IMG/VR virus record: IMGVR_UViG_3300045988_139610
DNA length: 64,000 nucleotides
Strand: one strand, 5' to 3'
From: a virus
A program made the position numbers and the translations under genes. Positions 12,493-61,614 of this stretch are shown here, in pieces; within the stretch, counting starts at the first letter, position 1; every line of letters begins with the position of its first letter. The notes under the pieces are model-generated. The model saw only the letters and a program-made list of their open reading frames with translations. It did not search any database and was not told the origin of the DNA.

Positions 12493-12520
12493 AATATTAC
12501 CTCCTTTTAATTTATTATAT

Positions 12521-12563
12521 CTTATATTACAGTATTAACATAACTTACTTAAAAATTACCTAT
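12521..12563 (-). promoter_or_regulatory. class-B phage promoter/leader
   Basis: Sense CATAGGTAATTTTTAAGTAAGTTATGTTAATACTGTAATATAAG. Confidence 0.55.
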
Positions 12564-12609
12564 GGATGAAAATTATTTTATTAATTATTTTCATCGCCCT
12601 ATATTAATA

Positions 12610-12637
12610 AGTATACCATATTGTAAAAATTTGTCAA
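12610..12637 (-). promoter_or_regulatory. class-A sigma-A-type promoter
   Basis: Sense TTGACA-N16-TATACT. Confidence 0.6.
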
Positions 12638-12644
12638 TACTTTT

Positions 12645-12682
12645 TTAAATAAAAAATCACCACCTTTTTACAGATGGTGATG
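12645..12682 (-). terminator. rho-independent terminator after the DGQHR gene
   Basis: Sense ATCACCA-loop-TGGTGAT followed by TTTTTTATTT, starting 4 nt after the stop. Confidence 0.7.
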
Positions 12683-12685
12683 AAA

Positions 12686-13810
12686 TTATAAATTACTATA
12701 AAACTCTTGTTTAAACACCCTTATCATTAATGCTCTTGATTGTTTAGTGTTAATTGTGATATAAGTTTCTTTTCCTTCTTTAATTATGCAATCCCAAATA
12801 CTATTAGACTTTGAAAAATCTATTTCTTCTAAAGCTTTCAATTCTTCTTTCCACTTGCCAGATTTTCGCTTCATGTATAAATCTTCTGCTAGTGATATAT
12901 AAGCATGGAACATAATATCTTCACATTCTAATGATTCTTTTCTAATTAATATACGTCCTTCTCCATCTTTCATGTGGGGGAATAAACAAAATAGTTCATT
13001 GAAAAATGAAGATAAAAACATATATATTTCCTTCTCTTCTGATTCATTTTTAATTGAGGGGAACGATTCATCTATTGCCATTTTTAGGGTATTAAAAGTT
13101 ACTATGTGTTCCATATCATCTTTGCTTACGCTATTTTTTCTTACGTCAATCATGCCTTTAAGAACAGAATGTTCATTTAACCTTAATATGATTCGGTTGC
13201 TAGCTTTAGTGCTGTCAAAACTCTCGGCTAAAGATTTACTTATTTTTAATCCTTTAGACATTTGAGAAAACACAATCTTGGCTTTAGAATCACTGTAATG
13301 AGTTAACATAATTGGAAATATAGTATTTTTCACATTCTTAATTAATTCTTCATCGCCAAGTATTTGAGAAGATTTATAAGCTCGGTAACATGCTTTAACT
13401 CTATGATTTCCGTCTAATAAAGCTATGCTTCCTTTAATAAAAAGTTCTCTTTTATCTTTATTATAATTAATTAATCCTTTACCATTATTAAGCACATTGA
13501 ATGTTAATTGAGTAGTTCCTAGTTGCCCTTTTAATATTAAATTCTGCATTTCTAATATGTTTGATTGTTTTGTTATTGTTTCTTCTTTTATTTTATTATT
13601 AATTTTTTTATATTTCACTCCACGTTGAGTAGGAATGTAATATGTCAATTCCTCTTTATCCCACATTCTACCGATTTCTTCTGCTGATAGGTGTGTAAGA
13701 TATTTGTTATTGCCTAAATCTATTACATCTTTAAAAGTTTTAAGTACGAAAAATTCTTTTTCATTTTCTTTATAAATATTATTTTTATTTATAATTTTCA
13801 CATTAATCAC
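12686..13810 (-). CDS. DGQHR-domain (DndB-like / ParB-nuclease-fold) protein
   Basis: LLDGNHRVKA (DG[QN]HR motif) and upstream IPTQRGV (QR motif). The real start is probably the GTG at 13799-13801, 5 nt after AGAGGTGA. Confidence 0.5.
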   Translation of the reverse strand: MINVKIINKNNIYKENEKEFFVLKTFKDVIDLGNNKYLTHLSAEEIGRMWDKEELTYYIPTQRGVKYKKINNKIKEETITKQSNILEMQNLILKGQLGTTQLTFNVLNNGKGLINYNKDKRELFIKGSIALLDGNHRVKACYRAYKSSQILGDEELIKNVKNTIFPIMLTHYSDSKAKIVFSQMSKGLKISKSLAESFDSTKASNRIILRLNEHSVLKGMIDVRKNSVSKDDMEHIVTFNTLKMAIDESFPSIKNESEEKEIYMFLSSFFNELFCLFPHMKDGEGRILIRKESLECEDIMFHAYISLAEDLYMKRKSGKWKEELKALEEIDFSKSNSIWDCIIKEGKETYITINTKQSRALMIRVFKQEFYSNL

Positions 13811-13871: not shown

Positions 13872-14607
13872 TTATTTTCTTTTATAATTTTTATAATACT
13901 CCTTCTTTATTTCTTTTTTCTTTTTCAATATTCTGACTCTGCTATACTCTACTTGCTCCTTGTCTATTTCACTTGCAATGTAATAAATATTTTCATTAAT
14001 TGTTGCTAAACATGTACTCCCAGTCCCACAAAACGTGTCAAAGACAATTCCTCTTTTTTTCACATACATATTTAATAATTCTTTTACTAATTCAGTTGAA
14101 AATACATGATGATTAAATGTTTTAACTCCTTTGTCTCTAACTGGTGCATTAATTATATTAGATATATTAGTATATGTTTTTTGTCCGTTCTCTCTGTGGC
14201 TTTTAACCTTTTTGTTAGTCTTGTAAGTTTTGAATTCATTCTTTCTGCAAAATAAATGTATTTGTGATACATTTTTTGTTGATTGATTACAACTCATATT
14301 ATCTGGTAAAATACCAACTTTATTCCAATATATAATGTCACCTAATTGAAATTCTGTATTCATTTCTATTTCATTTATTATTTGGAATATTTCACTTGGT
14401 TTCTTTCTGTTATATGGGATTTCAATTAATATTGTTCCATTATCTACTAATATTTTATCAAACTGTTGAAATAGATTTATGTAGTCCTCCTTAGATAAGT
14501 TAGGGAGGACTTTGAGTCAGTATAACATCTACTTTGAAATTTTCTTCAACCATTTGTTCCATTAGAGAAAAACAATCTGTATTATATATTACATTTTTTT
14601 CAATCAT
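13872..14607 (-). pseudogene. beta-class N4-C/N6-A DNA methyltransferase disrupted at the (S/D)PPY motif
   Basis: ATG at 14605-14607. MIEKNVIYNTDCFSLMEQMVEENFKVDVILTQSPP-TAA(14500-14502). The +1 frame continues NLSKEDYINLFQQFDKILVDNG.. into track ORF 13872..14363, which carries motif I FDTFCGTGST. Total length is 736 nt (3n+1). Confidence 0.7.
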
Positions 14608-20480: not shown

Positions 20481-21260
20481 TTAGTCAGTTATTTCAACTT
20501 TATAAATATATAACGCTTGATATAATTCACTTGGTATTTTTCTTTTGAAGTAATCTGCAACTTCTTTTATGTTTCTCTCTTTGTAGTATTTATATATCTG
20601 AAATGCTTCCAACTCCGTATCATAATAACCTAAATGTTCTTGTTTTGATTTTCCAGTTTTTGGATTAATTATACGACATAGCACTCTATATTTACCATTT
20701 ACAGGAGTTGTCCCTATAACTGATTTACCTCTTTTATTGTCATTTTTAGTAAATAAGCCGTTGATAGTTTGAGGTACATATATGCAAGTCTCTGGGGAGT
20801 ATATTTTATTCCCTTTAACTAAAATGTCTTTATCTAAACACATTACTTCGTTTTTAACTGTATAATAGTTCTCACTATCCCAACTTCCAAAGTTTTGAAA
20901 ATTATGGAATTCTTCTGATGCTTCACATCCTATATATGTCGGTTCTTTTCCTTGATATTTGTCATCATAACATCTTTGTAACATATTATACCAACTTTGA
21001 AATACTCTAGTTAATTTCCCATTTTCGCTTACTTTATATTCCCCTTCGCCTAAATAGCCTATTTCAAAATATCTTCTTTCATATGGGCATTTTATATTTC
21101 CCTTTTTAAAATTTTGATATTTTGCTCCTTTAAAAGTCCAATTATATTCTGGAAAATATACATCAATATCCATACATCCTCTATACTCGACTATAACCAT
21201 CTCACTACCAAAGTTATTTATATTTCTTTCTCCTATCCTATTAATTTGATTTCTTCCCAT
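20481..21260 (-). CDS. homing-endonuclease-like protein, AP2-type C-terminus (paralog 2 of 4)
   Basis: Same motif set as 7676..8443. GGAGG lies 9 nt before the ATG at 21258-21260 (MGRNQINRIGE), inside the primase 3' end. Confidence 0.55.
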   Translation of the reverse strand: MGRNQINRIGERNINNFGSEMVIVEYRGCMDIDVYFPEYNWTFKGAKYQNFKKGNIKCPYERRYFEIGYLGEGEYKVSENGKLTRVFQSWYNMLQRCYDDKYQGKEPTYIGCEASEEFHNFQNFGSWDSENYYTVKNEVMCLDKDILVKGNKIYSPETCIYVPQTINGLFTKNDNKRGKSVIGTTPVNGKYRVLCRIINPKTGKSKQEHLGYYDTELEAFQIYKYYKERNIKEVADYFKRKIPSELYQALYIYKVEITD

Positions 21261-21265
21261 ATTAA

Positions 21266-22279
21266 TCATCCTCCTATAATACATTCATCACAAAGTTTTT
21301 CAAATATTTCTTTCCCCTGGTCTGATGGAGATACTTTACTTCCTTTTTTCATATATTTATTTTCTTTATCAATCATTACTTTTATTTTTATATCTCGCAT
21401 AAAACAGCACGATTTAATAGTTTGAATATCTCGTTTTATAGCGTCTATTATTAAACCTTCGTCCATACACAAGACTATTTCTGAAACACCTAATTTTAAT
21501 AATTGTTCTACTTGAGTTATACTTATTTGGTTACCCCCTAATGCCGTAGTATTATGTACTCCGAAACTATCACATTGAAGCACAGATTTCTCTGCCTCGA
21601 AGATATATACCTCTTTACTTTCTTTGATGTATTCTTTATTCTGATATAGACCATAAAGATATTTGTGCTTAGGAAAAGGGATTAAAGGAAGGTATTTGAA
21701 ATTTGTTATTTCGTCTGAATCCAAATCTATACGACCCATGACTCCTATAATTTCTCCATGTTCATTATAATGAGGTATTGTAATGCGATTGTTCTCTTCA
21801 GAAAATCCTATATTAAATTTAACTTGACTCGAAGGTAATATACCGTCATCTGCGAAACGTTTAAACCATTTATAACCACTATTATATTCTTCTAAAACAC
21901 TTTCATCATAAGTCACTTCCTTTTCTTCATCTTCATAAGGTACATATAAGCTATCGAAGAAACCATCAAATAATACCTCTTCCTCTGGTTGATAATTACC
22001 TTCTATTTTCTTACCTAACATAGTTTGTGTTGTTTTTAATACTTCTCTATAGGTTAAACCTGTATGAGTAGCTATTAAACCGAATAAATCCCCATTATAA
22101 GACGTTGTAAAATCTGTAGCTGATAAATTATCATTTAATTTGATTCTACATCCACTAGGGTTATCTCCTCCTACTTTTGCACACCTAATCTCTTTATCTG
22201 TTATATTAATACTATGATAATTATAATAACTTAATATTTTTTCGATTTGTTCTGGATTATTTTTTAAATACTCTTTCAT
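21266..22279 (-). CDS. dnaG: DNA primase (Toprim domain)
   Basis: Toprim-like YIFEAEKSVLQ and LCMDEG. Sits directly downstream of dnaB. Ends with a genuine TGA stop (21266-21268). Confidence 0.65.
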   Translation of the reverse strand: MKEYLKNNPEQIEKILSYYNYHSINITDKEIRCAKVGGDNPSGCRIKLNDNLSATDFTTSYNGDLFGLIATHTGLTYREVLKTTQTMLGKKIEGNYQPEEEVLFDGFFDSLYVPYEDEEKEVTYDESVLEEYNSGYKWFKRFADDGILPSSQVKFNIGFSEENNRITIPHYNEHGEIIGVMGRIDLDSDEITNFKYLPLIPFPKHKYLYGLYQNKEYIKESKEVYIFEAEKSVLQCDSFGVHNTTALGGNQISITQVEQLLKLGVSEIVLCMDEGLIIDAIKRDIQTIKSCCFMRDIKIKVMIDKENKYMKKGSKVSPSDQGKEIFEKLCDECIIGG

Positions 22280-24087: not shown

Positions 24088-24879
24088 TTAATCTGTTATT
24101 TCTACCTTATAATTGTATAATGTATCATATAATTTTCTTGGTATTAAATTTTTATAATATTCTGCAACCTCTTTAATATATTGTTCTTTGAATTCTTTAT
24201 AAACTTTAAATGCTTTTTGTGGTGTATCATACGACCCTAAATATTTTGTTTTACTTTTATTTTCTTCAAAATCATATATACTAAAACTTGCTTGAAATTT
24301 TTTATCTCGTTTATTATAATGTACGCCTATAGGATATTCCCCTCGTTTATTACCCCTTTTAGTAAATAATATATTTATATTATTGGGTACAAACACGCAA
24401 TTATCTGGTGAATATATTTTATTCCCTTTATTTAGAATATCTTTATCTAAACACATTTTTTCATTATCAACCTCATAATAATTATTATCATACCACTCTG
24501 CAAAATTCTGAAAACACAACCATTCTTCACAGACTTTGCAATTAATATATGTTGGACGTTTTTTATGAAGTTTATCATCGTAACATCTTTTTAGCATATC
24601 GTGCCAAACATCATAACATTTTGTATTTTTACAATTTTCACTTACTTTATATTTACCTTCCCCTATATAAGCAACACCATAAACTCTTCTCTCATATGGA
24701 CAACTAATTTTGCCTTTTTTGAAATTATCATATGATACATTCTTGGCAATCCAATTATATTCTGTGAAACAAACATCAATATCTCTATTCATTCTGTATC
24801 CCACTATTATCATCTTACTACCAAAGTTATTGTAACCAATTTCCCCAACTCTATCTATCTTACTCCCCATAACCATCAC
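24088..24879 (-). CDS. homing-endonuclease-like protein, AP2-type C-terminus (paralog 3 of 4)
   Basis: Same motif set: CPYERRVYGVAYIGEGKYKVS, WHDMLKRCY, LDKDILNKGNKIYSPDNC. Confidence 0.55.
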   Translation of the reverse strand: MMVMGSKIDRVGEIGYNNFGSKMIIVGYRMNRDIDVCFTEYNWIAKNVSYDNFKKGKISCPYERRVYGVAYIGEGKYKVSENCKNTKCYDVWHDMLKRCYDDKLHKKRPTYINCKVCEEWLCFQNFAEWYDNNYYEVDNEKMCLDKDILNKGNKIYSPDNCVFVPNNINILFTKRGNKRGEYPIGVHYNKRDKKFQASFSIYDFEENKSKTKYLGSYDTPQKAFKVYKEFKEQYIKEVAEYYKNLIPRKLYDTLYNYKVEITD

Positions 24880-30683: not shown

Positions 30684-31997
30684 TTAAAATTTATCACTCT
30701 CTAATACCTCTAGTAGTTGTGGAATATCTACTCCGAAACCTTCTGTTAATTTTGTACTTCCTACGAAATCATTCCAACTAAATGCCGTAGTAAATGTATA
30801 TGTTTTGTTACTTGTATTTGCTCTTGTATATTTAGGTTTTCTAGTAGCACTTGTACCGAATAACACCTTTGCTCTAAGCACTTCAAATGAGTAACCTCTC
30901 CCAGCTTTCTCGATGTTCTTAATCAAGTTGTTTAAACTCTCTGTATAAGCATTTGTAATTCTACATGTAAAGTAATTAAATATCTCATACTGCCAGTTAT
31001 CAACTGTTTTGATTACATCTTGGTAGTATTTCATATCCTTTGGAACTGCTTTTTTCCAGTCCTCATAAGCCTTTAAAGCATCTTCTCGATTATCATGTTT
31101 ATAGATATCCCTAAATTGTTCTTTTAACTCATAGGCTAACTTTAACTGTGGAAAATCTAGAAACATTAGCTGCATATCCCAAATCTGTTTAGGTTCTAAA
31201 TCTTCCTTATTCCTTAATAGCAAGAATCTATCCTTTAACAGCTTAGACCTTTGCTTTCTGTCTAGAGAACCTTTAAATGACTTTCTCTCACCTTCTAAAG
31301 CATTATTAACTAATTGTATTACATGGAATCTGTCAACTATTACCTGAGCTTTTGGCAACTCCTCATAGACTGCCTCTTTGTAGTATCTCCACATATCTAT
31401 GGTTACTACTTCTATGTTATTCTTATTAGGCAATTTGCTCAGAAAAGCCTTTACATCGGACTTCTTACGGCTTGGCTGGATATCCAATACCTTACGTCCA
31501 ATTATATCGGTATAAACGGCTCTCATGCTTTTATTTAGATGTGCTTCGTCTATGCCTAATATAACTGGAGTGAGGAATGTCATATCCTTTTCTAACCTTT
31601 CTATGTAAGCATTAAATATTCTCTTTACTGTAGTAGGAGAAACACTATATTCTTCTGCTATATTGGCGAATGGCTTTTTAAGGGATTCTTTTTCTATTTG
31701 CTCTCTTAAACGAATAGTGATTTTATCTCTATCGTCAATACTTTTGTAATGTTGACTAAATGTAGTACCGCAGTATCTGCATTTATATCTATGTGTATGT
31801 ATTTCAATCCCTACACGTTTCCCAAAGCTGTTCAAATCCCTCACAAATCTCTTTGATTTGCCATGCTTATAATATTCAACTCCACCACACTCTGGGCAAG
31901 CCACAGGCTCTTTAACTGGTTTAACTATTACTGTCATGTCATGTTCATCTTGTATTGTGTCTATAACTTCAAACTCTGGTAAATTTAGTATATTCAT
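30684..31997 (-). CDS. ISL3 family transposase
   Basis: N-terminal zinc-finger pattern CPECG..YKCRYCG, then the DDE_Tnp_ISL3-like body (IDEAHL.., VTIDMW, DRFHVI, NAYTESLN). Confidence 0.85.
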   Translation of the reverse strand: MNILNLPEFEVIDTIQDEHDMTVIVKPVKEPVACPECGGVEYYKHGKSKRFVRDLNSFGKRVGIEIHTHRYKCRYCGTTFSQHYKSIDDRDKITIRLREQIEKESLKKPFANIAEEYSVSPTTVKRIFNAYIERLEKDMTFLTPVILGIDEAHLNKSMRAVYTDIIGRKVLDIQPSRKKSDVKAFLSKLPNKNNIEVVTIDMWRYYKEAVYEELPKAQVIVDRFHVIQLVNNALEGERKSFKGSLDRKQRSKLLKDRFLLLRNKEDLEPKQIWDMQLMFLDFPQLKLAYELKEQFRDIYKHDNREDALKAYEDWKKAVPKDMKYYQDVIKTVDNWQYEIFNYFTCRITNAYTESLNNLIKNIEKAGRGYSFEVLRAKVLFGTSATRKPKYTRANTSNKTYTFTTAFSWNDFVGSTKLTEGFGVDIPQLLEVLESDKF

Positions 31998-34491: not shown

Positions 34492-35265
34492 TTAATTATT
34501 TTCGGCTTTTTCTATTCTATTTTTAGCTATATTAAAGTAATTCTCATCTAGTTCAATTCCTATAAATTTACGATTAGTATTCATACAAGCAACCCCTGTA
34601 CTACCACTGCCCATAGTAAAATCTAATACTAAATCATTTTCATTAGTATATGTCTTAATCCAATATTCAAGTAATTTAATAGGTTTTTGTGTAGGATGTA
34701 TCCTATTTAAATTATTACATTCTCCTATAATTTTACTTAAACTATATAAATTTGTAGGATATCTTTTTGTATTATCATAATTTTTACTAAGTTTTGTAAT
34801 ATGTTTCCCATAATTATTGCTCGAATAACCTTCTTTGCTAATTGGTCTAATATTTTTTTGTTCTGCGTCAGTCATTTGAGGATTGTATATTGGTAATTTT
34901 TTATAAAAGACGCATATATCTTCTGTTCTTTTTAAAGGCATTCGTTTAGCATTAAGAAAACCACTTGGTAATTGTTTGTCCCATGTTATCCTATATTTAA
35001 ATTCTTTTAAATTACTACATATTAATTTACTTGTAAACGGCTCATCTGAAAATAATAATATAGGTGTATTTTTATTAATTAGTTTATGTATTTTTCCCCA
35101 CATACAATTAAAAGGAATTATTTCATCCCATTTATTTCTCGATGTTATTCCATATGGAATATCTGTAAATATCATATCAACTTTCATACCTTTTTCGATT
35201 AACATATCCATCACTTCTAAGCAATCGCCTTGATATAATTTATATCTTTCATTTTCTATACCCAT
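34492..35265 (-). CDS. DNA methyltransferase, beta class (N6-adenine or N4-cytosine)
   Basis: Motif IV IFTDIPYG and motif I LDFTMGSGSTGVAC, in the order IV->I. Confidence 0.85.
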   Translation of the reverse strand: MGIENERYKLYQGDCLEVMDMLIEKGMKVDMIFTDIPYGITSRNKWDEIIPFNCMWGKIHKLINKNTPILLFSDEPFTSKLICSNLKEFKYRITWDKQLPSGFLNAKRMPLKRTEDICVFYKKLPIYNPQMTDAEQKNIRPISKEGYSSNNYGKHITKLSKNYDNTKRYPTNLYSLSKIIGECNNLNRIHPTQKPIKLLEYWIKTYTNENDLVLDFTMGSGSTGVACMNTNRKFIGIELDENYFNIAKNRIEKAENN

Positions 35266-44355: not shown

Positions 44356-45185
44356 TTAATTTTCTTCTATATCTATGTCAGTTATTGTTTTAAATATGTC
44401 TTTATTGAAGTTAGGTAATGAAGTAAATGCATTTTTTTCTTTATCATTTATATAATTCCACATATTTCTCCATGCCTCTTTATAATTTAATTCTTTTAAA
44501 TAACCTCTAGCAATTTTATAATTGGGATGTTTTTCTTTTTCTTCATCTGTCATTTCATATTCATTAACCCATAGAGTTAATTTAAAATAGTTATTTATTA
44601 TTTCAAATACACAACTTTTTTCCATGTGTCTAATGTCCAATCACTTTCTTTATTAAATAGTTTAATCGTTTCATGTTTATCATTATCGTCAGTGCAAAAG
44701 CATCCTAATTTTTTATTGCCTAAATTACAGTCTCCAATGTTATAATTACCTTTATTATAATTACCACTATTCCAATTTCCAGTATTCCAATCTCCAGTAT
44801 TCCAATCTCCAGGATTATAATCTCCAGTATTATAATTTCCAGTATTATAACTACCTGTGTTTTTAATACCTGTGTTACCTTCACCAGTATTAACCATATC
44901 TAATACTTCATGCCAGCTTAATTCTTTTATTATTTTTATTTCATTTGTTACACATTTATTATTTGAACAATCACTTTTTTCTATAATTTCACCAGTAGCT
45001 TCTATTATAGCTACTTTGTTTTCTGGGTCAAAAGTGTAATAATTAAAACAATCAACTAGCTTTTTACAAAAATGAAATCCTGCTTCACATATATCTATTT
45101 TCCCTTCATGTCTATATGTTTCTCCTACCTTATATTGAAAACCTCTGCAAGTCCAATCTGAATTAAATACTTTATATCCTTTCAT
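44356..45185 (-). CDS. DUF7666-like N-terminus + NTGxW five-residue repeats; frame broken (-1) at an A6 run
   Basis: Track ORFs 44598..45185 and 44356..44640 overlap. ..SDWTLDTWKK|SCVFEIINNY.. is continuous if one A of TGGAAAAAAGT (44616-44621) is re-read. Confidence 0.55.
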
Positions 45186-45388: not shown

Positions 45389-45637
45389 TTATAAATTTAG
45401 GTCATCTAATGAAAAGTCAAATTCATCTTGTTTCCTTTCTTCTACCTTTACAGTTTCACGTGAAACGTCTGTTATTACTGTCGCTCCATTAGCTAAATAG
45501 CTTTGTTCAATCTGCATGTGTAATCTTAACAAATCTTTTATATATCCCGTTTTGCTAGTTTTCCCATTTAAAAATTCTATAATATCTTTATCTTTTTCAT
45601 TGAAGGTCAATCTAACCTCTTTAATAGTCTTCTTCAT
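45389..45637 (-). CDS. ParR-like ribbon-helix-helix adaptor (putative)
   Basis: 82 aa immediately downstream of parM. The N-terminus KEVRLTFNEKDKDIIEFLNG..GYIKDLLRLHM fits a strand-helix-helix pattern. Confidence 0.4.
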   Translation of the reverse strand: MKKTIKEVRLTFNEKDKDIIEFLNGKTSKTGYIKDLLRLHMQIEQSYLANGATVITDVSRETVKVEERKQDEFDFSLDDLNL

Positions 45638-45645
45638 AATATCAC

Positions 45646-46560
45646 CTACTTATATATTTTATTAGCTATATTTAATAAACCTTGTGCTTGTAAAGTTATA
45701 TCTTCAGATGATATTGTTTGTTGATATATCTTTTTCATTGTAGGTGATATAATTTTAGCTCCACCACCAATAATGAGAATATTTGAATTCTTGATGTTAT
45801 TTGCTTGCCCTTTTATTTCATTTACTAAATTAACTATAAATTTCTTAACTAACTCTTCTTTGTATTTGAAATCACCTACTAATAAAGATTCTTCATTATC
45901 AAATATTCTTTTTGTTTGTTCTAATGATAATGATAAATCATATGTTAAGTTAAGATATTCTCTACAAGAATTGTATAAATCAAACAATCCTAATCTTATA
46001 CTAAATCCATCTTTTAATTGCATTTTATTATCGTAGATTGTAATATCGCATGTATTCCCACCTATATCCACAACCATCGTGTCTACATTTTTATTTAATT
46101 TATTCATTATACCTTGTATAGATTTGATTGAATAAGACTCTGGAAGTATTGTAACATTCTCAATTACTATGCTTCTTTTAATCCCATTTATAATTATAGT
46201 CTTTTTATTATTCTTTTTAATATAATCTTCCATTTTATCTTTCTTTTTATATTGATTAACAGGACAACAAGTTACCAAATTGATATTGTTTTCCGTATCT
46301 TTTGTAGCATTTGCTATACAATAATAAAGTAATATTAAATAATTGTCTTTTTTATATTTTAAAAGTTCATTTTCATACTTTCCTTCACCAATTAAATAAC
46401 CCTCATCATCTATAGTGAATTTTTGATTTTGTGAAAAGTCATCTAAACCATTTTCGCATTGTTTAATTCTCGATTCACAAATACAACTCCCATTATTAGA
46501 TATAGCTATTGATGTTAAATTACCGATGTCTACTCCTATATTGATAATATTTTTACTCAT
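45646..46560 (-). CDS. parM: actin-like segregation ATPase (ParM/Alp family)
   Basis: Actin-fold motifs GVDIGNLTS, VVDIGGNTCD and IIGGGAKI. ATG at 46558-46560 follows GGAGAG. Confidence 0.7.
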   Translation of the reverse strand: MSKNIINIGVDIGNLTSIAISNNGSCICESRIKQCENGLDDFSQNQKFTIDDEGYLIGEGKYENELLKYKKDNYLILLYYCIANATKDTENNINLVTCCPVNQYKKKDKMEDYIKKNNKKTIIINGIKRSIVIENVTILPESYSIKSIQGIMNKLNKNVDTMVVDIGGNTCDITIYDNKMQLKDGFSIRLGLFDLYNSCREYLNLTYDLSLSLEQTKRIFDNEESLLVGDFKYKEELVKKFIVNLVNEIKGQANNIKNSNILIIGGGAKIISPTMKKIYQQTISSEDITLQAQGLLNIANKIYK

Positions 46561-46620
46561 AATATCACTCTCCAAAATATTGATTATTATACACCTCTAC
46601 CCTATAGGTTATATAATAAA

Positions 46621-46845: not shown

Positions 46846-47520
46846 TTAATCCTCAAACATATTGATTTGAATACTTGGTTTGTAATCATTACAAATATCA
46901 ATTAATAATTTCACGTTATTTCTGGAATAATTTAAATCTTCCCATTTGGATACTCCGACCTCATAGAAAAACATTTCTTTTATAATATTATAATCTTTAT
47001 TAACTTTACTAATACCTAAATGTTCTTTAATTATTTTACCGTAATCAAATACATCTTTTGCTCTTATACCAACTAAATGTTTTATTTCTTCTATTTGTTT
47101 ATCTTGTTCCTCAATCTTATATTTCATATCTTCAACTAATTGATTCATATCGTTTAATAATTCTGGAAACTCATTAAAATCTTGTATTTCATATTTACCT
47201 GTTTTTCTTATTTGTGGTAATACTTCATCCATAACCCACTCTTCAAATTTTTGTGCTGAAGGTAATTTACTACCTATTATTAATCTGTATAAATCACCTT
47301 CATTGATTAAAGTTGTTTGAGTTTTAACCACCTTGCCATTTTGGCAATGTGATATCATTTCTTTTCTTTTATGTTTACACTTTTTAGATATAGTAGCACT
47401 TGGGTCTGAATATCCTAAAATCGACGCTATATCTTTACCTACAAACCAAGGTTCATTACTTATATTTATCACTCTTATTTTCCCAAATTCATCATTGTTA
47501 AATAACATTAATTCGTTCAT
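46846..47520 (-). CDS. BRO-N domain antirepressor-like protein
   Basis: LMLFNNDEFGKIRVINISNEPWFVGKDIASILGYSDPS matches the recalled Bro-N pattern. Confidence 0.75.
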   Translation of the reverse strand: MNELMLFNNDEFGKIRVINISNEPWFVGKDIASILGYSDPSATISKKCKHKRKEMISHCQNGKVVKTQTTLINEGDLYRLIIGSKLPSAQKFEEWVMDEVLPQIRKTGKYEIQDFNEFPELLNDMNQLVEDMKYKIEEQDKQIEEIKHLVGIRAKDVFDYGKIIKEHLGISKVNKDYNIIKEMFFYEVGVSKWEDLNYSRNNVKLLIDICNDYKPSIQINMFED

Positions 47521-47623
47521 AATATCTCCTCCTATTTTATTAATTATTTTTACTTAAACTTTCTAAATCTCCATAAAATTCCATCATATCATCCTCTCAA
47601 ACCTAGTAATATCAATTGTTCGT

Positions 47624-47680
47624 ATAAAAGTGTACCCGCTTTGCATGAAAGTGTACCTGCTTTACATAAAAGTGTACCCT
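47624..47680. repeat. three 21-bp direct repeats (iteron-like)
   Basis: AAAGTGTACC at 47627, 47648 and 47669. Units are ATAAAAGTGTACCCGCTTTGC, ATGAAAGTGTACCTGCTTTAC and ATAAAAGTGTACCCT... Confidence 0.8.
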
Positions 47681-47681
47681 A

Positions 47682-47710
47682 ATAAATAGATAAATATATA
47701 AATAGATAAA
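47682..47710. repeat. two ATAAATAGATAAA 13-mers in a pure A/T stretch (possible DNA-unwinding element)
   Basis: Copies at 47682-47694 and 47698-47710, adjacent to the iterons. Confidence 0.6.
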
Positions 47711-47720
47711 AAAATAAATA

Positions 47721-48617
47721 TTAATCTCTTTTTTCTCTTTCTTCTTTTTCTCTTCTTCTTTCTATATATTCTTCATACGATATAAGTCGAATGTAAGTTA
47801 CAGAAGTATAAACTATCTTCCCATTTTTATTTTGTATTTTTTCTGTTTTCGTATATTTTTCAATTAAATCAATATCCCTTAATAAATCAAGAGTTTTATT
47901 AAGTTCTTTTTTATTTTTCCCACTATCTGAATTCAATCCAATATTATTGTTTATGCTTTCTTTTATTATTCTTGTAAAAGTTTTAGTGTTGCATCTATAT
48001 TTCAACAACATATAAACTTTTATAGTTGACGATTTTAAATCATTAAGTAATGTTTTTAATATTTCTTCTTCTATAGTAACATATTTACGTCCGTCTTTAT
48101 TCTTATAATTAATTATATATGTAGTTTTTCCATTTATAATTTTCGCAACAACTAAGCTACTTTCTAATTTGGCTAATTTCTTTATATTCCTTTTAACAGT
48201 GTCAAATTTATTTTTACTATACTCTTCAATTTTAGATTGGTTAAGTATTAAATCATCTTCTGTGATATATCTATGGTCTTCACCTTTAGTATATTTACTA
48301 AATAAGGTCATCAAACCATATGTGTTATAATCGCATTTCTTATCCTTCATGTTCTTTTCATCTGTACTTATTGGGAATCTAATAATATTGTCTTTAGACA
48401 TACCGATAGCAACTGTGTCTTTATCTATTATTAAATCTTTTATATCATCGTCTACACCAATCATTTCACCTATTAAATCATAATCTAATTCTCTTTGAGA
48501 TTCAGTATCATCTATATCTGGAATCTCATTAAACTGATTTCCTATTAAATCATAATTTAATTGTTTTTGATAATCTAATTCTTCCAAGTTATCACCTCCT
48601 TTACCACCATAACGCAT
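47721..48617 (-). CDS. putative plasmid-type replication initiator (winged-helix-like repeats)
   Basis: Lies immediately upstream of the iterons. The basic C-terminal half has a two-domain look. N-terminal LDY.LIG repeats. A TTG at 48585-48587 behind AAGGAGGTGATAAC may be the real start. No family motif verified. Confidence 0.4.
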   Translation of the reverse strand: MRYGGKGGDNLEELDYQKQLNYDLIGNQFNEIPDIDDTESQRELDYDLIGEMIGVDDDIKDLIIDKDTVAIGMSKDNIIRFPISTDEKNMKDKKCDYNTYGLMTLFSKYTKGEDHRYITEDDLILNQSKIEEYSKNKFDTVKRNIKKLAKLESSLVVAKIINGKTTYIINYKNKDGRKYVTIEEEILKTLLNDLKSSTIKVYMLLKYRCNTKTFTRIIKESINNNIGLNSDSGKNKKELNKTLDLLRDIDLIEKYTKTEKIQNKNGKIVYTSVTYIRLISYEEYIERRREKEEREKRD

Positions 48618-49792: not shown

Positions 49793-50524
49793 TTAATAAT
49801 TTATTGCATTTTCTTTATTCACAAAGAAATGTATTCCAGTACTGCATTCATTCCATCTATTATTATCAAAATTATCCACACTTACTATTTCTCCAACTTT
49901 GTATATGAAATTGCTGTCATAACTACTTCTTATTTCTTTTACTTTATCTCCCGTTTCAATGTTTTCTATATCTAATACTTTAGCTTTATCACATCTACAT
50001 TTTGCAGTAGTCGCACTACTTCTTTTAGAATCTTCTAATATCAATAACTTAACTATACATCCATTAGCTTTCTTATATCCTATAAAACTACCAGTTTCTG
50101 GACAAGCTAAATTATAACCAATAGTATGAATATTTGTTTTTATATCTTTTAAATTAGCACTACTTAAATCAGCACATCTCAAATTAGTATCTTTTAAATT
50201 AGAATAGCTTAAATTAGAATAGCTTAAATCTGCATTACTTAAATTAGTATATCTTAAATCAGCATATCTTAAATCTGCACATCTTAAATTGACACATCTT
50301 AAATCAGTATATCTTAAATTAGTATATCTTAAATCTGCATATTTTAAATTAACACATCTTAAATTAGTATTACTTAAATTAGCATTTTTTAAATTAGCGT
50401 TTTTTAAATTAGCACCACTTAAATCAACATTACTTAAATTAGCACGTTTTCCTCCTTCTCTTTTTAACCACAATTCATGTTCCTTTAATATTTTATTTAA
50501 TTCTTCTTGATTTATATTTTTCAT
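49793..50524 (-). CDS. pentapeptide-repeat protein with DUF5758-like C-terminal domain
   Basis: About 20 A(D/N)LxY-type repeats (ANLKNANLSNTNLRCVNLKYADLRYTNL..). C-terminus ..CSTGIHFFVNKENAINY. Confidence 0.75.
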   Translation of the reverse strand: MKNINQEELNKILKEHELWLKREGGKRANLSNVDLSGANLKNANLKNANLSNTNLRCVNLKYADLRYTNLRYTDLRCVNLRCADLRYADLRYTNLSNADLSYSNLSYSNLKDTNLRCADLSSANLKDIKTNIHTIGYNLACPETGSFIGYKKANGCIVKLLILEDSKRSSATTAKCRCDKAKVLDIENIETGDKVKEIRSSYDSNFIYKVGEIVSVDNFDNNRWNECSTGIHFFVNKENAINY

Positions 50525-50540: not shown

Positions 50541-51116
50541 TTAATTATTTTTAATTTCTTTTATTATATCTTTAATTAAATTGATTTTTCTATTAATTGT
50601 CACACTACTTACATTTAATTTTTTAGATATATTTTTTTGCTTGTATCCATCCATTAACATATCCATAATTATATGTAATTCTTCTGCATTAATCTTATTA
50701 AATTTATTAATATTTCTTTTTTTTATTATACTATCAAATTCATTCATTAATTCTATATATTCGATATTTTGATATTCTAAATCTATTTTTCCTATAGTAT
50801 CTAATAGAGTAGTCTGTTCTTTATCATCGTCAGATATATTAACATCCATAGATATAAGCATATCTTTGTCTCTATAATAAGTGTTTCTTAAATAGACATT
50901 GTATGAATTGTATATAATTGCACAAATAAATTTTTTAATATCCCCTTTAGACTCATCAAATTTATTTCTAGATTCCCAAAGTTGTAGTAACGAATATTGA
51001 ATCATATCTTCTTTAATTTTGAAAAATCCATTATAATTTTTATTATATATCTTACCAGCTAATTCTAAAGATAAATTTACATATTCTGTATCACTTATCA
51101 TTGTTTTACTCATCAC
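50541..51116 (-). CDS. small sigma-70-family factor (regions 2 and 4 only), copy 1
   Basis: 191 aa. Region-2-like LLQLWESRNKFDESKGDIKKFICAIIYNSY. Region-4 HTH EELHIIMDMLMDGYKQKNISKKLNVSSVTINRKINLIK. Confidence 0.6.
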   Translation of the reverse strand: MMSKTMISDTEYVNLSLELAGKIYNKNYNGFFKIKEDMIQYSLLQLWESRNKFDESKGDIKKFICAIIYNSYNVYLRNTYYRDKDMLISMDVNISDDDKEQTTLLDTIGKIDLEYQNIEYIELMNEFDSIIKKRNINKFNKINAEELHIIMDMLMDGYKQKNISKKLNVSSVTINRKINLIKDIIKEIKNN

Positions 51117-51193: not shown

Positions 51194-51784
51194 TTATTCA
51201 TTATTTTTTATTTCTGTAATTATATCTTTTATTCTATTGACTTTCTTATTAACATTCGTACTGCTTACTCCTAACATTTTGCTGATTTCGCATTTATTAT
51301 AGCCTTCATATAGTTTATTAATTATAAAATGTAACTCATCCAAATCTATTTTTCTACTTGTATGTTTATTTCTCTCTTCAACTATATTATTAAATTTATT
51401 TATAAACTCTTGTTTTTCAATATTTTTATAGTTGATATCTTCTTTAAGAAAATGACTAATTAATTTATTATATTCCTTTCTACAATCCAGTAATGTATCA
51501 TTCATTGTATATATTCCTTCAGCAGAAATAACTTTACCTTTATTTTTATATACAAAGTCTCTCACATATTTTGTCATGCTCTTCCATGCAATAGCATTAA
51601 GATAAGTATTTAATGAAACATTTTTGCTTTCATCATATCTTTTTATGGCACTACACATTTGCATATAAGCATATGATTGCATATCGTCTTTAAATAGAGA
51701 GAATGTTTTAAATCGTTTATTCCATATTCCCTTTGTTATTTTTATCATCAATCTTCCTTGTTCTTCTGAAATTTTTTCTTTCAT
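51194..51784 (-). CDS. small sigma-70-family factor, copy 2 (tandem paralog)
   Basis: 196 aa with the same layout. HTH DELHFIINKLYEGYNKCEISKMLGVSSTNVNKKVNRIK. Confidence 0.6.
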   Translation of the reverse strand: MKEKISEEQGRLMIKITKGIWNKRFKTFSLFKDDMQSYAYMQMCSAIKRYDESKNVSLNTYLNAIAWKSMTKYVRDFVYKNKGKVISAEGIYTMNDTLLDCRKEYNKLISHFLKEDINYKNIEKQEFINKFNNIVEERNKHTSRKIDLDELHFIINKLYEGYNKCEISKMLGVSSTNVNKKVNRIKDIITEIKNNE

Positions 51785-60708: not shown

Positions 60709-61614
60709 TTAATCCCAAACATTATTTACCATTTTCTTTTTAGTATCTGTATTAGGATGGTAATAAAAAGAGTAGGTTGTTTGTGGATTACTATGTCCAG
60801 CTAGCTTTGCTGTTTCTGTAACATTAAATCCATTCTCCATATATGCCGTTAAACTTGTATGGCGTGCCGTATGAGGCGTAAAATTTGTAATTCCTACACT
60901 TTTAGTTATGTTTGATATTATTTTTTCAAGTCCACTTGAAGACAAACGTTGTTTATAACTTGATATAAATAGTGAATTATCTTTTGCATTTATTTTTAAT
61001 CTTTCATCAAGATATTTATTATATAAATCTAAAGCTTTATCGCTTAATACACATTGCTTTTTACTGCCACCTTTTTGAGTAATAGTATATTCTCCTGTTT
61101 CTCTATCTATTGTATCAACGTTTAAACTTCTTATTTCAAAATTTCTAAGTGCATTTTGGAATAAAATTTCTACAATTAAAATATTTCTTAAATTGTTAAA
61201 ATTCTTTTTCAAATTATATTCTGATTTTACATAATTTCTAATCTTTGTTATGTTTTTTGTATCTTCTGCGTGACCTTTAGATTCAATTCTTAATTGTTTA
61301 AGTTCCTTACTAGCATTAAAATCAATAATCCTAAATGCACATAGATAACCATAAAATGATTTACAACTAGCTATCCTTCTGTTAAGACTTTGATTAGATA
61401 ATCCTTCATTTCTTTTTTTGTTTAACCAATTTTGTAATTGGATTATAGTAGAATTTTGTATATCATCTATTCTTTTAAATCCACAATACTCAATCATTTC
61501 CTTTACTACTGGAATATATGATTTAATACTTTTAGGTGATAAGTTTTTTATATCCTTCAAGTATGCTATATAATTATTTATTAATCTTTCCATATTATTA
61601 ACTTTTTCCATCAT
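60709..61614 (-). CDS. tyrosine recombinase (XerC/D-like integrase)
   Basis: SAM-like N-domain YIAYLKDIKNLSPKSIKSY. Catalytic ALRNFEIRSL (R), HTARHT (HxxR), LAGHS and ..TYSFYYH (Y). Confidence 0.85.
   Translation of the reverse strand: MMEKVNNMERLINNYIAYLKDIKNLSPKSIKSYIPVVKEMIEYCGFKRIDDIQNSTIIQLQNWLNKKRNEGLSNQSLNRRIASCKSFYGYLCAFRIIDFNASKELKQLRIESKGHAEDTKNITKIRNYVKSEYNLKKNFNNLRNILIVEILFQNALRNFEIRSLNVDTIDRETGEYTITQKGGSKKQCVLSDKALDLYNKYLDERLKINAKDNSLFISSYKQRLSSSGLEKIISNITKSVGITNFTPHTARHTSLTAYMENGFNVTETAKLAGHSNPQTTYSFYYHPNTDTKKKMVNNVWD

What the first reader, a model, noticed from the sequence alone, without database searches (positions are those of the whole stretch)
47624..48617. Plasmid-style origin: three exact-phase 21-bp iterons plus an A/T 13-mer pair directly downstream of a Rep-like gene
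AAAGTGTACC recurs at 47627, 47648 and 47669, exactly 21 bp (two helical turns) apart, within longer units (A[TA][AG]AAAGTGTACC[CT]GCTTT[GA]C). These are relatively G+C-rich islands in an A/T background. Immediately beside them are two ATAAATAGATAAA 13-mers (47682, 47698) in a pure A/T stretch, like a DNA-unwinding element. The adjacent 298-aa ORF has a repeat-containing acidic N-terminus and a basic C-terminal half with a two-domain look, as in iteron-binding Rep proteins. Together with the ParM/ParR-like genes and the Xer-like recombinase, this suggests the element is maintained as an extrachromosomal phage-plasmid. The window also carries a complete phage replisome (DnaB, primase, Pol III alpha), which implies two replication modes.
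Basis: partly seen in the sequence, partly recalled or inferred. Interest (0 to 1): 0.75.

Follow-up and report, generated by a model that had tools for sequence, protein, structure and literature searches.

The report
Iteron-type replication origin with cognate initiator
Next to the plasmid-partition genes of a roughly 138-kb Clostridia phage sits an unannotated two-winged-helix DNA-binding gene, followed by an easily melted A/T tract and three 21-bp repeats that change whenever the protein's second domain changes; this is most likely a plasmid-style replication origin with its own initiator, a familiar kind of system built on a protein family that no database recognises.

Summary
Three 21-bp direct repeats (47619-47681) share an exact 10-mer core, and that core has no other exact copy in the window. 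An A/T tract (47682-47720) lies between them and the stop codon of a 298-aa gene. The tract is among the least stable 0.02% of 40-mers in the window.

The protein has no Pfam or NCBIfam family, and PHROGs labels it 'ScpB'. It models confidently as a disordered acidic N-terminus plus two winged-helix domains. Its only two-domain matches among solved structures are the iteron initiators RepE54 and RctB, and both matches are weak.

In 17 related loci the order is always the same: gene, conserved A/T tract, variable repeats. There are five repeat types, and they follow the WH2 domain (80-98% identity within a type, 31-42% between types). They do not follow ParM/ParR, which stay 97%/83% identical across types.

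Distant homologues in sequenced circular C. difficile phage-plasmids carry DnaA-box-like sites, 22-bp iterons and an A/T region beside parA.

Best reading: an iteron origin with its cognate initiator, probably for plasmid-prophage maintenance (about 0.6). Replication itself is untested.

The parts
47721..48617 (-). 298-aa gene for a tandem winged-helix DNA-binding protein, the putative iteron-binding initiator. Residues 1-77 (nt 48387-48617) are acidic, disordered and contain a duplicated 24-aa segment. WH1 covers about residues 78-183 (nt 48069-48386). WH2 plus the C-terminal helix covers about residues 184-298 (nt 47724-48068).
   Evidence: ORF. AF2 model: pLDDT about 90 for residues 78-298 and below 50 for residues 1-75, with two helix-strand-helix-helix-wing units. 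PHROG 3396, E 3e-19; no Pfam or NCBIfam family. Foldseek matches: RepE54 co-crystals (TM 0.52 normalised to the target), RctB domains 2-3, and BFVD entries named 'Replication initiator protein' and 'Replication protein O'. Duplicated DNA segment 48469-48503 / 48541-48575.
47682..47720 (.). A/T-rich periodic tract and putative DNA-unwinding element. In gene orientation it reads TTTATCTATTTAT(A) units with period 15-16.
   Evidence: period 8/16. 2 G/C in 40 bp; among the least stable 0.016% of 40-mers. The sequence is conserved in all 17 related loci whatever the repeat type, with 1.5 to 4 unit copies.
47619..47681 (.). Three 21-bp direct repeats (iterons, 'type A'). In gene orientation: GGGTACACTTTTATGTAAAGC / AGGTACACTTTCATGCAAAGC / GGGTACACTTTTATACGAACA.
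   Evidence: The same repeat is found in L004 and L011-L013. Loci whose WH2 domain differs carry unrelated repeats at the same position.
47540..47618 (-). Conserved spacer (ACGAACAATTGATATTACTAGGTTTGAGAGG) with the ribosome-binding site of the next ORF. In the window that ORF is cut down to a 15-codon remnant (47540-47587). Relatives have a 138-156-aa ORF of unknown function here.
   Evidence: The downstream ORF has no Pfam family.
46846..47520 (-). Bro-N / Ant-like gene. It is the next intact gene downstream and is not conserved at this position in relatives.
45646..46575 (-). Actin-like partition ATPase (ParM/ALP).
   Evidence: ALP_N E 3e-16; PHROG 691 'partition protein' E 2.5e-36. 37% identical to the ParM of C. 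perfringens plasmids.
45389..45637 (-). 82-aa ParR-like adaptor with an acidic C-terminal tail (DEFDFSLDDLNL).
   Evidence: Its position immediately after parM is conserved in L006-L009. It is 80-89% identical across loci that carry different iteron types.
60709..61614 (-). XerC/D-type tyrosine recombinase, a candidate multimer resolvase or integrase.
   Evidence: Phage_integrase plus Phage_int_SAM_1.

Best explanation
The 298-aa gene, the A/T tract and the three 21-bp repeats form one unit: an iteron-type origin of replication with its own initiator.

**Proposed mechanism (all inferred).**
- Monomers of the tandem winged-helix protein bind the three repeats. The repeats are two helical turns apart, so the monomers sit on one face of the DNA. 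WH2 sets the sequence specificity.
- The bound array melts the adjacent conserved A/T tract. The initiator may also contact one strand of that tract, as RepE and TrfA do.
- The element's own DnaB-like helicase, primase and Pol III alpha are then loaded. This would explain why the window's module has no DnaA boxes.

**Likely role (inferred).** The module sits beside parM/parR and a Xer-like recombinase. Its distant homologues lie in the maintenance region of circular C. difficile phage-plasmids. It is therefore most probably the origin used to maintain the roughly 138-kb element as a low-copy plasmid prophage.

**Shown versus inferred.** Shown: the repeats are non-random; the three-part architecture is conserved; repeat type co-varies with WH2; the predicted fold is a tandem winged helix. 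Inferred: DNA binding, melting, helicase recruitment, and the plasmid lifestyle.
For: 1. **Non-random repeats.** They are in helical phase, and the A/T tract is extremely unstable.
2. **Conserved order in 17 related loci.** Stop codon, then the A/T tract of TTTATCTATTTAT units, then a repeat region of about 65 bp, then the next ORF.
3. **Five repeat types that follow the protein.** WH2 is 80-98% identical within type A and 31-42% identical to all other types. L004 shares only 35% of the N-terminus but 80% of WH2, and it has the same iteron. L014 shares 73% of the N-terminus but only 42% of WH2, and it has different repeats.
4. **The repeats do not follow the partition genes.** ParM is 97% and ParR 83% identical between the window and L008/L009, while the WH protein is 35% identical and the repeats are unrelated.
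5. **Copy number varies.** With an identical protein there are 2 or 3 iterons. The A/T units number 1.5 to 4.
6. **Fold.** It is a tandem winged helix. RepE54 (probability 0.99, TM 0.52) and RctB domains 2-3 are the only two-domain PDB matches. BFVD neighbours are named 'Replication initiator protein' and 'Replication protein O'.
7. **C. difficile homologues.** They share about 30% identity and occur only in C. difficile phage-plasmids. In phiCD6356 and pCd18_3 the gene is followed by DnaA-box-like sites (TTATCCACA, TTATCAACA, TTGTCCACA), 3-4 iterons of 22 bp with a related CAC-TTTT core, and an A/T region. This lies next to parA, in replicons with no other plasmid Rep.
8. **Shared flanking motif.** The exact 11-mer AGAAATCTAAC flanks the iterons in both phage groups and occurs nowhere else in 318 kb of loci.
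9. **Canonical layout.** Iterons, a DUE with 13-mer-like repeats, a WH1-WH2 initiator and as few as 2-3 iterons match the standard iteron origin (PMC4980987).
10. **Stand-alone contigs.** Relatives assemble as contigs of 126-142 kb in many samples, and none is found in 185,579 representative genomes.
Against: - No experiment shows binding or replication.
- No DnaA boxes lie near the window's repeats.
- The gene has no promoter or operator of its own. It overlaps the upstream ORF inside a long one-directional gene array, and no half-iteron inverted repeat was found. This is unlike autoregulated rep genes.
- There is no sequence-level link to any known Rep family. No Rep_3 hit appears in 137 family members. 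The profile-profile comparison with Rep_3 gives only 13% probability.
- Foldseek E-values against the PDB are weak, at best 0.012.
- GC skew shows no inflection at the site, although every gene lies on one strand, so skew is uninformative.
- In pCDBI1 the homologue lies next to a genuine Rep_3 initiator with seven 22-bp iterons, so there it may play an accessory role.
- One relative lies in a 323-kb contig. That could mean integration.
Confidence: 0.6

Rival explanations
1. It is an origin, but the phage's vegetative (lytic) origin, comparable to lambda O/ori-lambda. On this reading the winged-helix protein recruits the phage DnaB, primase and Pol III during lytic growth. Plasmid maintenance, if it happens at all, uses something else.
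For: It is the only initiator-like gene found in the 64 kb that carry the phage replisome genes. The gene lies in a long co-directional array with sigma-like factors and Ant/Bro/Rha genes. A BFVD neighbour is named 'Replication protein O'. 20 of 137 family members hit HTH_36, the domain also found in the lytic initiator of phiCD6356.
Against: In the C. difficile phage-plasmids the homologue sits in the maintenance region beside parA or parM. It is separate from the lytic module, which has its own HTH_36 + Phg_2220_C initiator. In the 138-kb group it neighbours parM/parR. Type diversification among otherwise similar backbones suits an incompatibility determinant. Unlike lambda, the repeats lie outside the gene and have no dyad symmetry.
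Confidence: 0.15
2. It is a transcription factor with its operator array. On this reading the winged-helix protein binds the three repeats to repress or activate the downstream genes (the 138-156-aa ORF, Bro/Ant and parMR). It would be a heteroimmunity-like specificity cassette, and the A/T tract would be a promoter.
For: The repeats lie upstream of the next ORF in every locus. Cassette-like co-variation of regulator and sites is also typical of phage immunity regions. Family members hit only generic HTH/wHTH regulator models such as MarR, HTH_11 and HTH_24. In pCDBI1 a separate Rep_3 initiator is present.
Against: Direct repeats at two-turn spacing suggest monomers binding in tandem. Dimeric repressors typically use palindromic sites. 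The downstream gene is not conserved and is a 15-codon remnant in the window, yet the module is intact. The A/T motif is not reused elsewhere in the window as a promoter would be, and its copy number varies from 1.5 to 4. The consensus scan finds no convincing promoter there. DnaA-box-like clusters accompany the homologous module in C. difficile.
Confidence: 0.13
3. It is a partition site. On this reading the repeats are a centromere and the winged-helix protein is a centromere-binding adaptor, working either with ParM or, as the PHROG 'ScpB' label implies, with an SMC-type condensation system.
For: It lies close to parM/parR. The PHROG label is ScpB, which is also a tandem winged-helix protein. 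The N-terminal repeats (QRELDYDL, QKQLNYDL) resemble the ParR C-terminal tail (QDEFDFSL).
Against: The repeats do not co-vary with ParM/ParR. L004 and L010 carry the module with no ALP gene within 6 kb. No ScpB model was hit in any family member, and no ScpB structure appears among the top 50 Foldseek matches. The C. difficile homologues lack the N-terminal extension, and some of those elements use ParA instead. parC sites normally lie upstream of parM.
Confidence: 0.07

Closest known systems
Iteron plasmids with WH1-WH2 initiators (Rep_3 class): F RepE/ori2, R6K pi/gamma-ori, pPS10 RepA, RK2 TrfA/oriV
   Same: These origins have direct repeats of about 19-22 bp in helical phase next to an A/T-rich DUE containing 13-mer-like repeats. 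The initiator has two winged-helix domains, is encoded beside the origin and binds as a monomer. Some have only 2-3 iterons (PMC4980987). RepE54 is the best two-domain structural match here.
   Different: No Rep_3 HMM hit appears in any of 137 family members, and the profile comparison reaches only 13% probability. The window's module has no DnaA boxes. It has no autoregulatory inverted repeat and no promoter of its own. The iterons lie downstream of the gene. The protein has an extra 75-residue acidic disordered N-terminus. The element supplies its own DnaB, primase and Pol III.
phiCD6356 gp35 and its homologues in C. difficile phage-plasmids (pCd18_3, pCDBI1)
   Same: These are the only annotated homologues, at 28-32% identity over both WH domains. 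In phiCD6356 and pCd18_3, 22-bp direct repeats lie downstream of the gene, with a related CAC-TTTT core and the flanking motif AGAAATCTAAC. They sit in the maintenance region beside parA or parM.
   Different: They lack the acidic N-terminal extension. They have DnaA-box-like sites. The module is inverted relative to the gene (gene, DnaA boxes, iterons, A/T). None has been characterised; they are annotated as 'ScpB', 'HTH domain protein' or hypothetical. pCDBI1 additionally encodes a true Rep_3 protein.
Phage-plasmid P1 RepA/oriR, and RepA-type extrachromosomal mycobacteriophage prophages
   Same: A temperate phage is maintained as a low-copy plasmid through an iteron-binding initiator, a partition system and a site-specific recombinase. 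For P1 this rests on my own knowledge. Mycobacteriophage RepA origins were shown to support autonomous replication (PMC7157519).
   Different: The initiator families are unrelated. P1 has two iteron arrays (incC and incA) flanking repA, plus DnaA boxes. Here there is a single short array and no control array was found.
Lambda O protein / ori-lambda
   Same: A phage initiator with a winged-helix DNA-binding domain binds repeats next to an A/T-rich region and recruits the helicase (my own knowledge). A BFVD neighbour carries the name 'Replication protein O'.
   Different: Lambda's four repeats lie inside the O gene and each has dyad symmetry. Here the repeats lie outside the gene and are asymmetric. 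No P-like loader was identified.

Membership tests
Iteron-type (theta) replication origin, as a functional class | Two or more direct repeats of about 17-22 bp in helical phase | tested here: met
   Three 21-bp units with an exact 10-mer core. This is the only such triple in the window, with 0 in 30 simulations.
Iteron-type (theta) replication origin, as a functional class | Adjacent A/T-rich unwinding element with short repeated units | tested here: met
   47682-47720 has 2 G/C in 40 bp, ranks among the least stable 0.016% of 40-mers, and is periodic. It is conserved in 17 loci. Actual melting was not tested.
Iteron-type (theta) replication origin, as a functional class | A cognate initiator encoded next to the repeats, whose specificity matches them | tested here: met
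   Repeat type follows WH2 identity (80-98% within a type, 31-42% between types) and is independent of the flanking genes. This shows cognate pairing. It does not show initiation.
Iteron-type (theta) replication origin, as a functional class | DnaA boxes in the origin (common but dispensable in some hosts) | tested here: not met
   No box with one mismatch or fewer lies between 46073 and 49814. The C. difficile homologous modules do have them.
Iteron-type (theta) replication origin, as a functional class | Autoregulatory inverted half-iterons at the rep promoter, or a second control array | tested here: not met
   The gene overlaps the upstream ORF by 17 nt. The window holds no further copies of the repeat core within 2 mismatches.
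Iteron-type (theta) replication origin, as a functional class | The fragment supports autonomous replication | not testable with these tools
   Needs cloning into a non-replicating vector and transfer into a permissive host.
Rep_3 initiators (Pfam PF01051 Rep3_N + PF21205 Rep3_C) | A significant match to the family HMMs | tested here: not met
   There is no Rep_3 hit for the window protein or any of 26 members at E<=1, and none for 137 wider members at E<=0.001. As a positive control, the pCDBI1 neighbour hits both models at about 1e-14.
Rep_3 initiators (Pfam PF01051 Rep3_N + PF21205 Rep3_C) | Remote homology by profile-profile comparison | tested here: inconclusive
   hhalign of the 137-sequence family profile against a 33-sequence Rep_3 profile gives probability 13% and E 0.002. 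WH2 aligns to WH2 in register over 104 columns.
Rep_3 initiators (Pfam PF01051 Rep3_N + PF21205 Rep3_C) | A WH1-WH2 fold that superposes on RepE, pi or RepA | tested here: inconclusive
   Foldseek against RepE54 co-crystal chains gives probability 0.96-0.99, TM 0.47-0.52 normalised to the target, 238-240 columns, but E 0.017-0.024. RctB domains 2-3 are also matched.
ScpB (the label of PHROG 3396) | Match to ScpB models, ScpB-like structural neighbours, ScpA/SMC partners | tested here: not met
   Pfam and NCBIfam were scanned for the 26 members and Pfam for the 137, and no ScpB family was reported. No ScpB chain is in the top 50 Foldseek PDB matches. No ScpA- or SMC-like gene was seen among the window ORFs scanned.
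Type II (ParMRC) centromere parC | Repeats bound by ParR: upstream of parM and co-varying with ParR | tested here: not met
   The repeats lie about 1 kb upstream with another gene in between. ParM is 97% and ParR 83% identical in loci whose repeats are unrelated. The module occurs without a nearby ALP gene in L004 and L010.
Phage-plasmid | Phage genes together with plasmid maintenance genes on one replicon | tested here: met
   The phage-type replication and nucleotide-metabolism genes, Ant/Bro/Rha genes and HNH genes sit with ParM/ParR and a Xer-like recombinase. Relatives are listed in IMG/VR. No virion genes lie within this 64-kb window.
Phage-plasmid | Extrachromosomal maintenance in lysogens | not testable with these tools
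   The evidence is indirect only: relatives assemble as contigs of 126-142 kb in many samples and are absent from 185,579 representative genomes. One relative lies in a 323-kb contig.

The most novel reading that the evidence does not exclude
The initiator may couple replication to segregation. Its disordered N-terminus carries one or two copies of an acidic-aromatic peptide (QKQLNYDL, QRELDYDL; EWEYSW in other types). This resembles the C-terminal tail of the neighbouring ParR (QDEFDFSL), which in type II systems is the part that binds ParM.

If the origin-bound initiator also docks onto ParM filaments, the origin would double as a second centromere. The interchangeable WH2/iteron cassettes would then set both replication and partition incompatibility among co-circulating 138-kb gut phage-plasmids.
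Probability: 0.1. Interest if true: 0.65.

Novelty: new variant of a known kind. Interest (0 to 1): 0.45.

Why it matters
Phage-plasmids are being recognised as a large class of gut mobile elements, but for Clostridia almost none has a defined plasmid replicon. This analysis makes four contributions:
- It assigns a testable origin and initiator to a group of roughly 138-kb phages seen in many metagenomes.
- It does the same, by homology, for the C. difficile phiCD6356-type phage-plasmids, which include clinical-strain plasmids.
- It shows that the PHROG label 'ScpB' is probably wrong for a family with at least 437 representatives at 50% identity.
- It identifies natural WH2/iteron specificity cassettes. 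If they work as proposed, they would supply a set of mutually compatible replicons for genetically difficult Clostridia, and a way to type incompatibility groups from sequence.

It is not a new principle of replication.

Tried and rejected
- **Chance repeat:** rejected.
- **RNA element (terminator, riboswitch, small RNA):** no terminator. Folding z-scores are -0.2 and -1.1 on the two strands. No credible Rfam match.
- **ParR centromere:** rejected because the repeats do not co-vary with ParR.
- **A/T tract as a reused phage promoter motif:** it is not enriched elsewhere in the window.
- **DnaA boxes in the window's module:** none found.
- **Additional iteron copies or a control array:** none found.
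- **GC-skew inflection:** uninformative. All genes in the window lie on one strand. In pCd18_3 the skew minimum (4057) falls beside the module, but it coincides with the switch in gene orientation.
- **Sequence searches against the PDB:** profiles of 26 and 137 sequences gave nothing significant.
- **hhalign against single RepE and Rep_3 sequences:** no signal. Against a Rep_3 profile the result was 13% probability.
- **Megablast of the region against GenBank phages:** no match.
- **GTDB representative genomes:** no homologue.
- **First structure submission:** I repeated it with A2.
- **Literature:** searches for an experimentally defined replicon of this family found none.
Full report
**1.

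The window is 25% G+C and every ORF of at least 100 aa that looks real lies on the minus strand. The 298-aa ORF (47721-48617, minus) stops at 47721-47723, and the next intact gene is a Bro-N/Ant-like ORF (46846-47520, minus). Between them lie two features:
- Three 21-bp direct repeats at 47619-47681. Their 10-mer core AAAGTGTACC is exact at 47627, 47648 and 47669 and has no other exact copy in the window.
- An A/T tract at 47682-47720, built from ATAAATAG units with period 8/16.

A scan for any G/C-containing 10-mer present three times at equal spacing finds only this case in the window. It finds none in 30 Markov simulations.

The tract is nonetheless among the least stable 0.016% of 40-mers in the window. 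The third repeat is only 76% identical to the first.

**2. The protein**

Pfam and NCBIfam give no family. PHROGs places it in phrog_3396, labelled 'ScpB' (E 3e-19).

An AlphaFold2 model built on 23 homologues is confident for residues 78-298 (pLDDT about 90). It shows two consecutive winged-helix units and a C-terminal helix. Residues 1-75 are disordered.

Foldseek against the PDB gives only weak E-values (0.012 at best). The only matches that span both domains are chain C of the 'isoreticular co-crystal' entries and RctB domains 2-3.
- The co-crystal match has probability 0.96-0.99, TM 0.47-0.52 normalised to the target, and 238-240 aligned columns.
- A RepE query retrieves that same co-crystal series, which identifies chain C as the F-plasmid initiator RepE54.
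- The other matches are single winged-helix domains (TFIIE, Cdt1, RTP).

Against predicted viral structures, the named neighbours include 'Replication initiator protein' (E 3.6e-6) and 'Replication protein O' (E 3.8e-5).

An exhaustive HMM search finds 437 cluster representatives at E<=0.001. Among 137 of them, the commonest Pfam hit is HTH_36 (20 members), one hits DnaD_N, and none hits Rep_3. A profile-profile comparison with a Rep_3 profile aligns WH2 to WH2 in register, but at only 13% probability.

The fold and the neighbours therefore fit an iteron-binding initiator. Membership of Rep_3 is not demonstrated.

**3. Comparative evidence that gene and repeats are one unit**

Homologues lie on metagenomic and IMG/VR contigs of 126-142 kb from many samples. 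None lies in 185,579 representative genomes.

In all 17 loci the stop codon is followed by the same A/T tract, made of TTTATCTATTTAT(A) units present in 1.5 to 4 copies. Next comes a repeat-bearing region of about 65 bp, and then the ribosome-binding site of the next ORF.

The repeat region falls into five types:

| Type | Loci | Repeat |
|---|---|---|
| A | window, L004, L011-13 | GGGTACACTTTTATGYAAAGC x3 |
| B | L007, L009 (x3); L008, L021 (x2); L010 (diverged) | AACCTTTTTCTGCRCTTAGTA |
| C | L006, L019, L020 | ATACCACYAC units, 21/23 bp apart |
| D | L014-16 | TTAGTAGG-containing |
| E | L017-18 | AAGTCCACTTT x2 |

Type follows the WH2 domain:
- WH2 is 80-98% identical to the window within type A and 31-42% identical in every other type.
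- L004 shares only 35% of the N-terminus but 80% of WH2, and it has the same iteron.
- L014 shares 73% of the N-terminus but 42% of WH2, and it has different repeats.

ParM and ParR behave differently. They are 97% and 83% identical between the window and L008/L009, where the WH protein is 35% identical and the repeats are unrelated. L004 and L010 carry the module with no ALP gene within 6 kb.

The repeats therefore belong to the WH protein, not to ParR and not to the variable downstream gene. In the window that downstream gene is a 15-codon remnant.

**4. Distant homologues in proven plasmids**

tblastn finds homologues at about 30% identity only in C. difficile phage phiCD6356, phage AR1074-1 and 18 circular Clostridioides plasmids of 37-49 kb. 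These plasmids are complete phage genomes that also carry parA or parM. Related phages in this species are known to be kept as extrachromosomal DNA (PMC6127314).

In phiCD6356 and pCd18_3 the gene lies beside the parA operon. It is followed, in order, by:
- DnaA-box-like sites: TTATCCACA, TTATCAACA and TTGTCCACA within 45 bp in phiCD6356;
- 3-4 repeats of 22 bp with the core CACCACTTTTT;
- an A/T region.

These replicons have no other recognisable plasmid Rep. Their lytic module has its own HTH_36 + Phg_2220_C initiator.

When the modules are read so that the repeats run CAC-TTTT, the A/T region lies on the same side of the repeats in both phage groups. The exact 11-mer AGAAATCTAAC occurs only four times in 318 kb of loci, and each copy lies next to an iteron array (L001 twice, L003, L004). 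One-mismatch copies lie next to the arrays of L003, L007-9 and L021.

One caveat applies. In pCDBI1 the homologue is divergently paired with a true Rep_3 gene, and seven 22-bp repeats lie between the two genes. In that plasmid the family need not be the initiator.

**5. Mechanism**

The arrangement matches the textbook iteron origin. In that model, monomers of a WH1-WH2 protein bind direct repeats. An adjacent DUE with 13-mer-like repeats melts, and the Rep protein can contact it strand-specifically. The helicase is then loaded, and two or three iterons can be enough (PMC4980987).

I infer the same mechanism here. The lack of DnaA boxes fits an element that carries its own DnaB-like helicase, primase and Pol III alpha.

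The module sits beside parM/parR and within 13 kb of a XerC/D-type recombinase. This points to maintenance as a plasmid prophage.

I found no second initiator among the window's ORFs. One origin may serve both states, or another origin may lie in the unseen half of the genome.

**6. Rivals**

- **Purely lytic origin (0.15).** The fold and the gene's position in a long early-looking array allow it. The synteny with partition genes in two phage groups argues against it.
- **Regulator and operator cassette (0.13).** The repeats are direct, the downstream gene is dispensable, the A/T motif is not reused and varies in copy number, and the C. difficile modules have DnaA-box-like sites. All of this argues against it.
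- **Centromere or ScpB-like role (0.07).** The lack of co-variation with ParR and the absence of any ScpB signal contradict it.
- **RNA-based explanations.** Excluded.

**7. Verdict**

The finding is a real, conserved cis-element with its cognate protein. It is most likely an iteron-type origin and initiator of a Clostridia phage-plasmid, with confidence of about 0.6 for that function and about 0.9 for the cognate protein-site pairing.

It is a known kind of system built on an unrecognised and probably mislabelled protein family. Its architecture is unusual in four ways:
- the origin lies downstream of the gene;
- there are no DnaA boxes;
- a sequence-conserved A/T tract sits next to interchangeable WH2/iteron cassettes;
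- the protein has an acidic N-terminal extension.

Interest is moderate.

Noticed in passing
window 48387-48617 (residues 1-77) and 45389-45430 (ParR C-terminus): The initiator's disordered N-terminus carries a duplicated acidic-aromatic peptide (QKQLNYDLIG and QRELDYDLIG; EWEYSW/EWEYEW in other types). It resembles the ParR C-terminal tail QDEFDFSLDDLNL, so both may dock on the same partner, possibly ParM. The C. difficile homologues lack this extension.
   Followed up: partly
L001 5742 and 5922; L003 5241 and 5043(-); L004 6979; L007 6908; L008 6887; L009 6908; L021 4902: A near-palindromic motif, TTAGAAATCTAA(C), flanks the iteron arrays on the side away from the A/T tract in both the C. 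difficile and the 138-kb phage groups. The exact 11-mer occurs nowhere else in 318 kb of loci and is absent from the window itself. It could be a host-factor site or a site for the protein's dimer.
   Followed up: partly
L008 and L021 versus L007 and L009; L019; L014: Copy number is polymorphic with the same or nearly the same protein: 2 versus 3 type B iterons, and 1.5 to 4 copies of the A/T unit.
   Followed up: yes
L006 6760-6831: In this relative the initiator gene has lost its normal stop codon and reads on into the A/T tract, adding the tail ...IIIYFLSIYILSIY.
   Followed up: no
L010 (contig of 323,523 bases, range 228628-241497): One relative lies in a contig far longer than the usual 138 kb or so. 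It could be an integrated copy, a larger element or a misassembly, which bears on the episome question. The flanking sequence could not be retrieved.
   Followed up: no
L002 3362-4770 (pCDBI1): The C. difficile homologue is divergently paired with a genuine Rep_3 initiator, and seven perfect-phase 22-bp iterons lie between the two genes. This is either a two-initiator arrangement or an initiator with an accessory protein.
   Followed up: partly
window 47540-47587: A 15-codon remnant (MMEFYGDLESLSKNN*) is all that is left of the 138-156-aa ORF that follows the iterons in relatives. The gene has been lost here while the origin module stayed intact.
   Followed up: yes
window 4306-7650: The ribonucleotide reductase large subunit is interrupted by an intein carrying a LAGLIDADG homing endonuclease. 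Relatives have an intein in the DNA ligase instead (L007).
   Followed up: no
window 7676-8443, 20481-21284, 24088-24879: Three paralogous HNH endonuclease genes (phrog_953) are scattered among the replication and nucleotide-metabolism genes.
   Followed up: no
window 30684-31997: A complete ISL3-family transposase lies in a locally G+C-richer stretch (0.31 against 0.25). This looks like an insertion sequence that has landed in the phage genome.
   Followed up: no
window 49793-50524 and 44598-45185: Two pentapeptide-repeat proteins are fused to DUF5758 and DUF7666. Their genes contain long tandem DNA repeats of 15/30/60 bp (50143-50445 and 44724-44850).
   Followed up: no
window 50541-51116 and 51194-51784: Two adjacent paralogous sigma-70-like factors, with weak region 2 and region 4 matches, lie just upstream of the module. 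This suggests phage-specific promoters that the sigma-70 consensus scan would miss.
   Followed up: no
window 11452-13810, 13872-14363 and 34492-35265: A C5-cytosine methyltransferase, a DndB-like protein and two further methyltransferase-like ORFs are present. The iteron core contains GTAC, so methylation could affect iteron binding.
   Followed up: no
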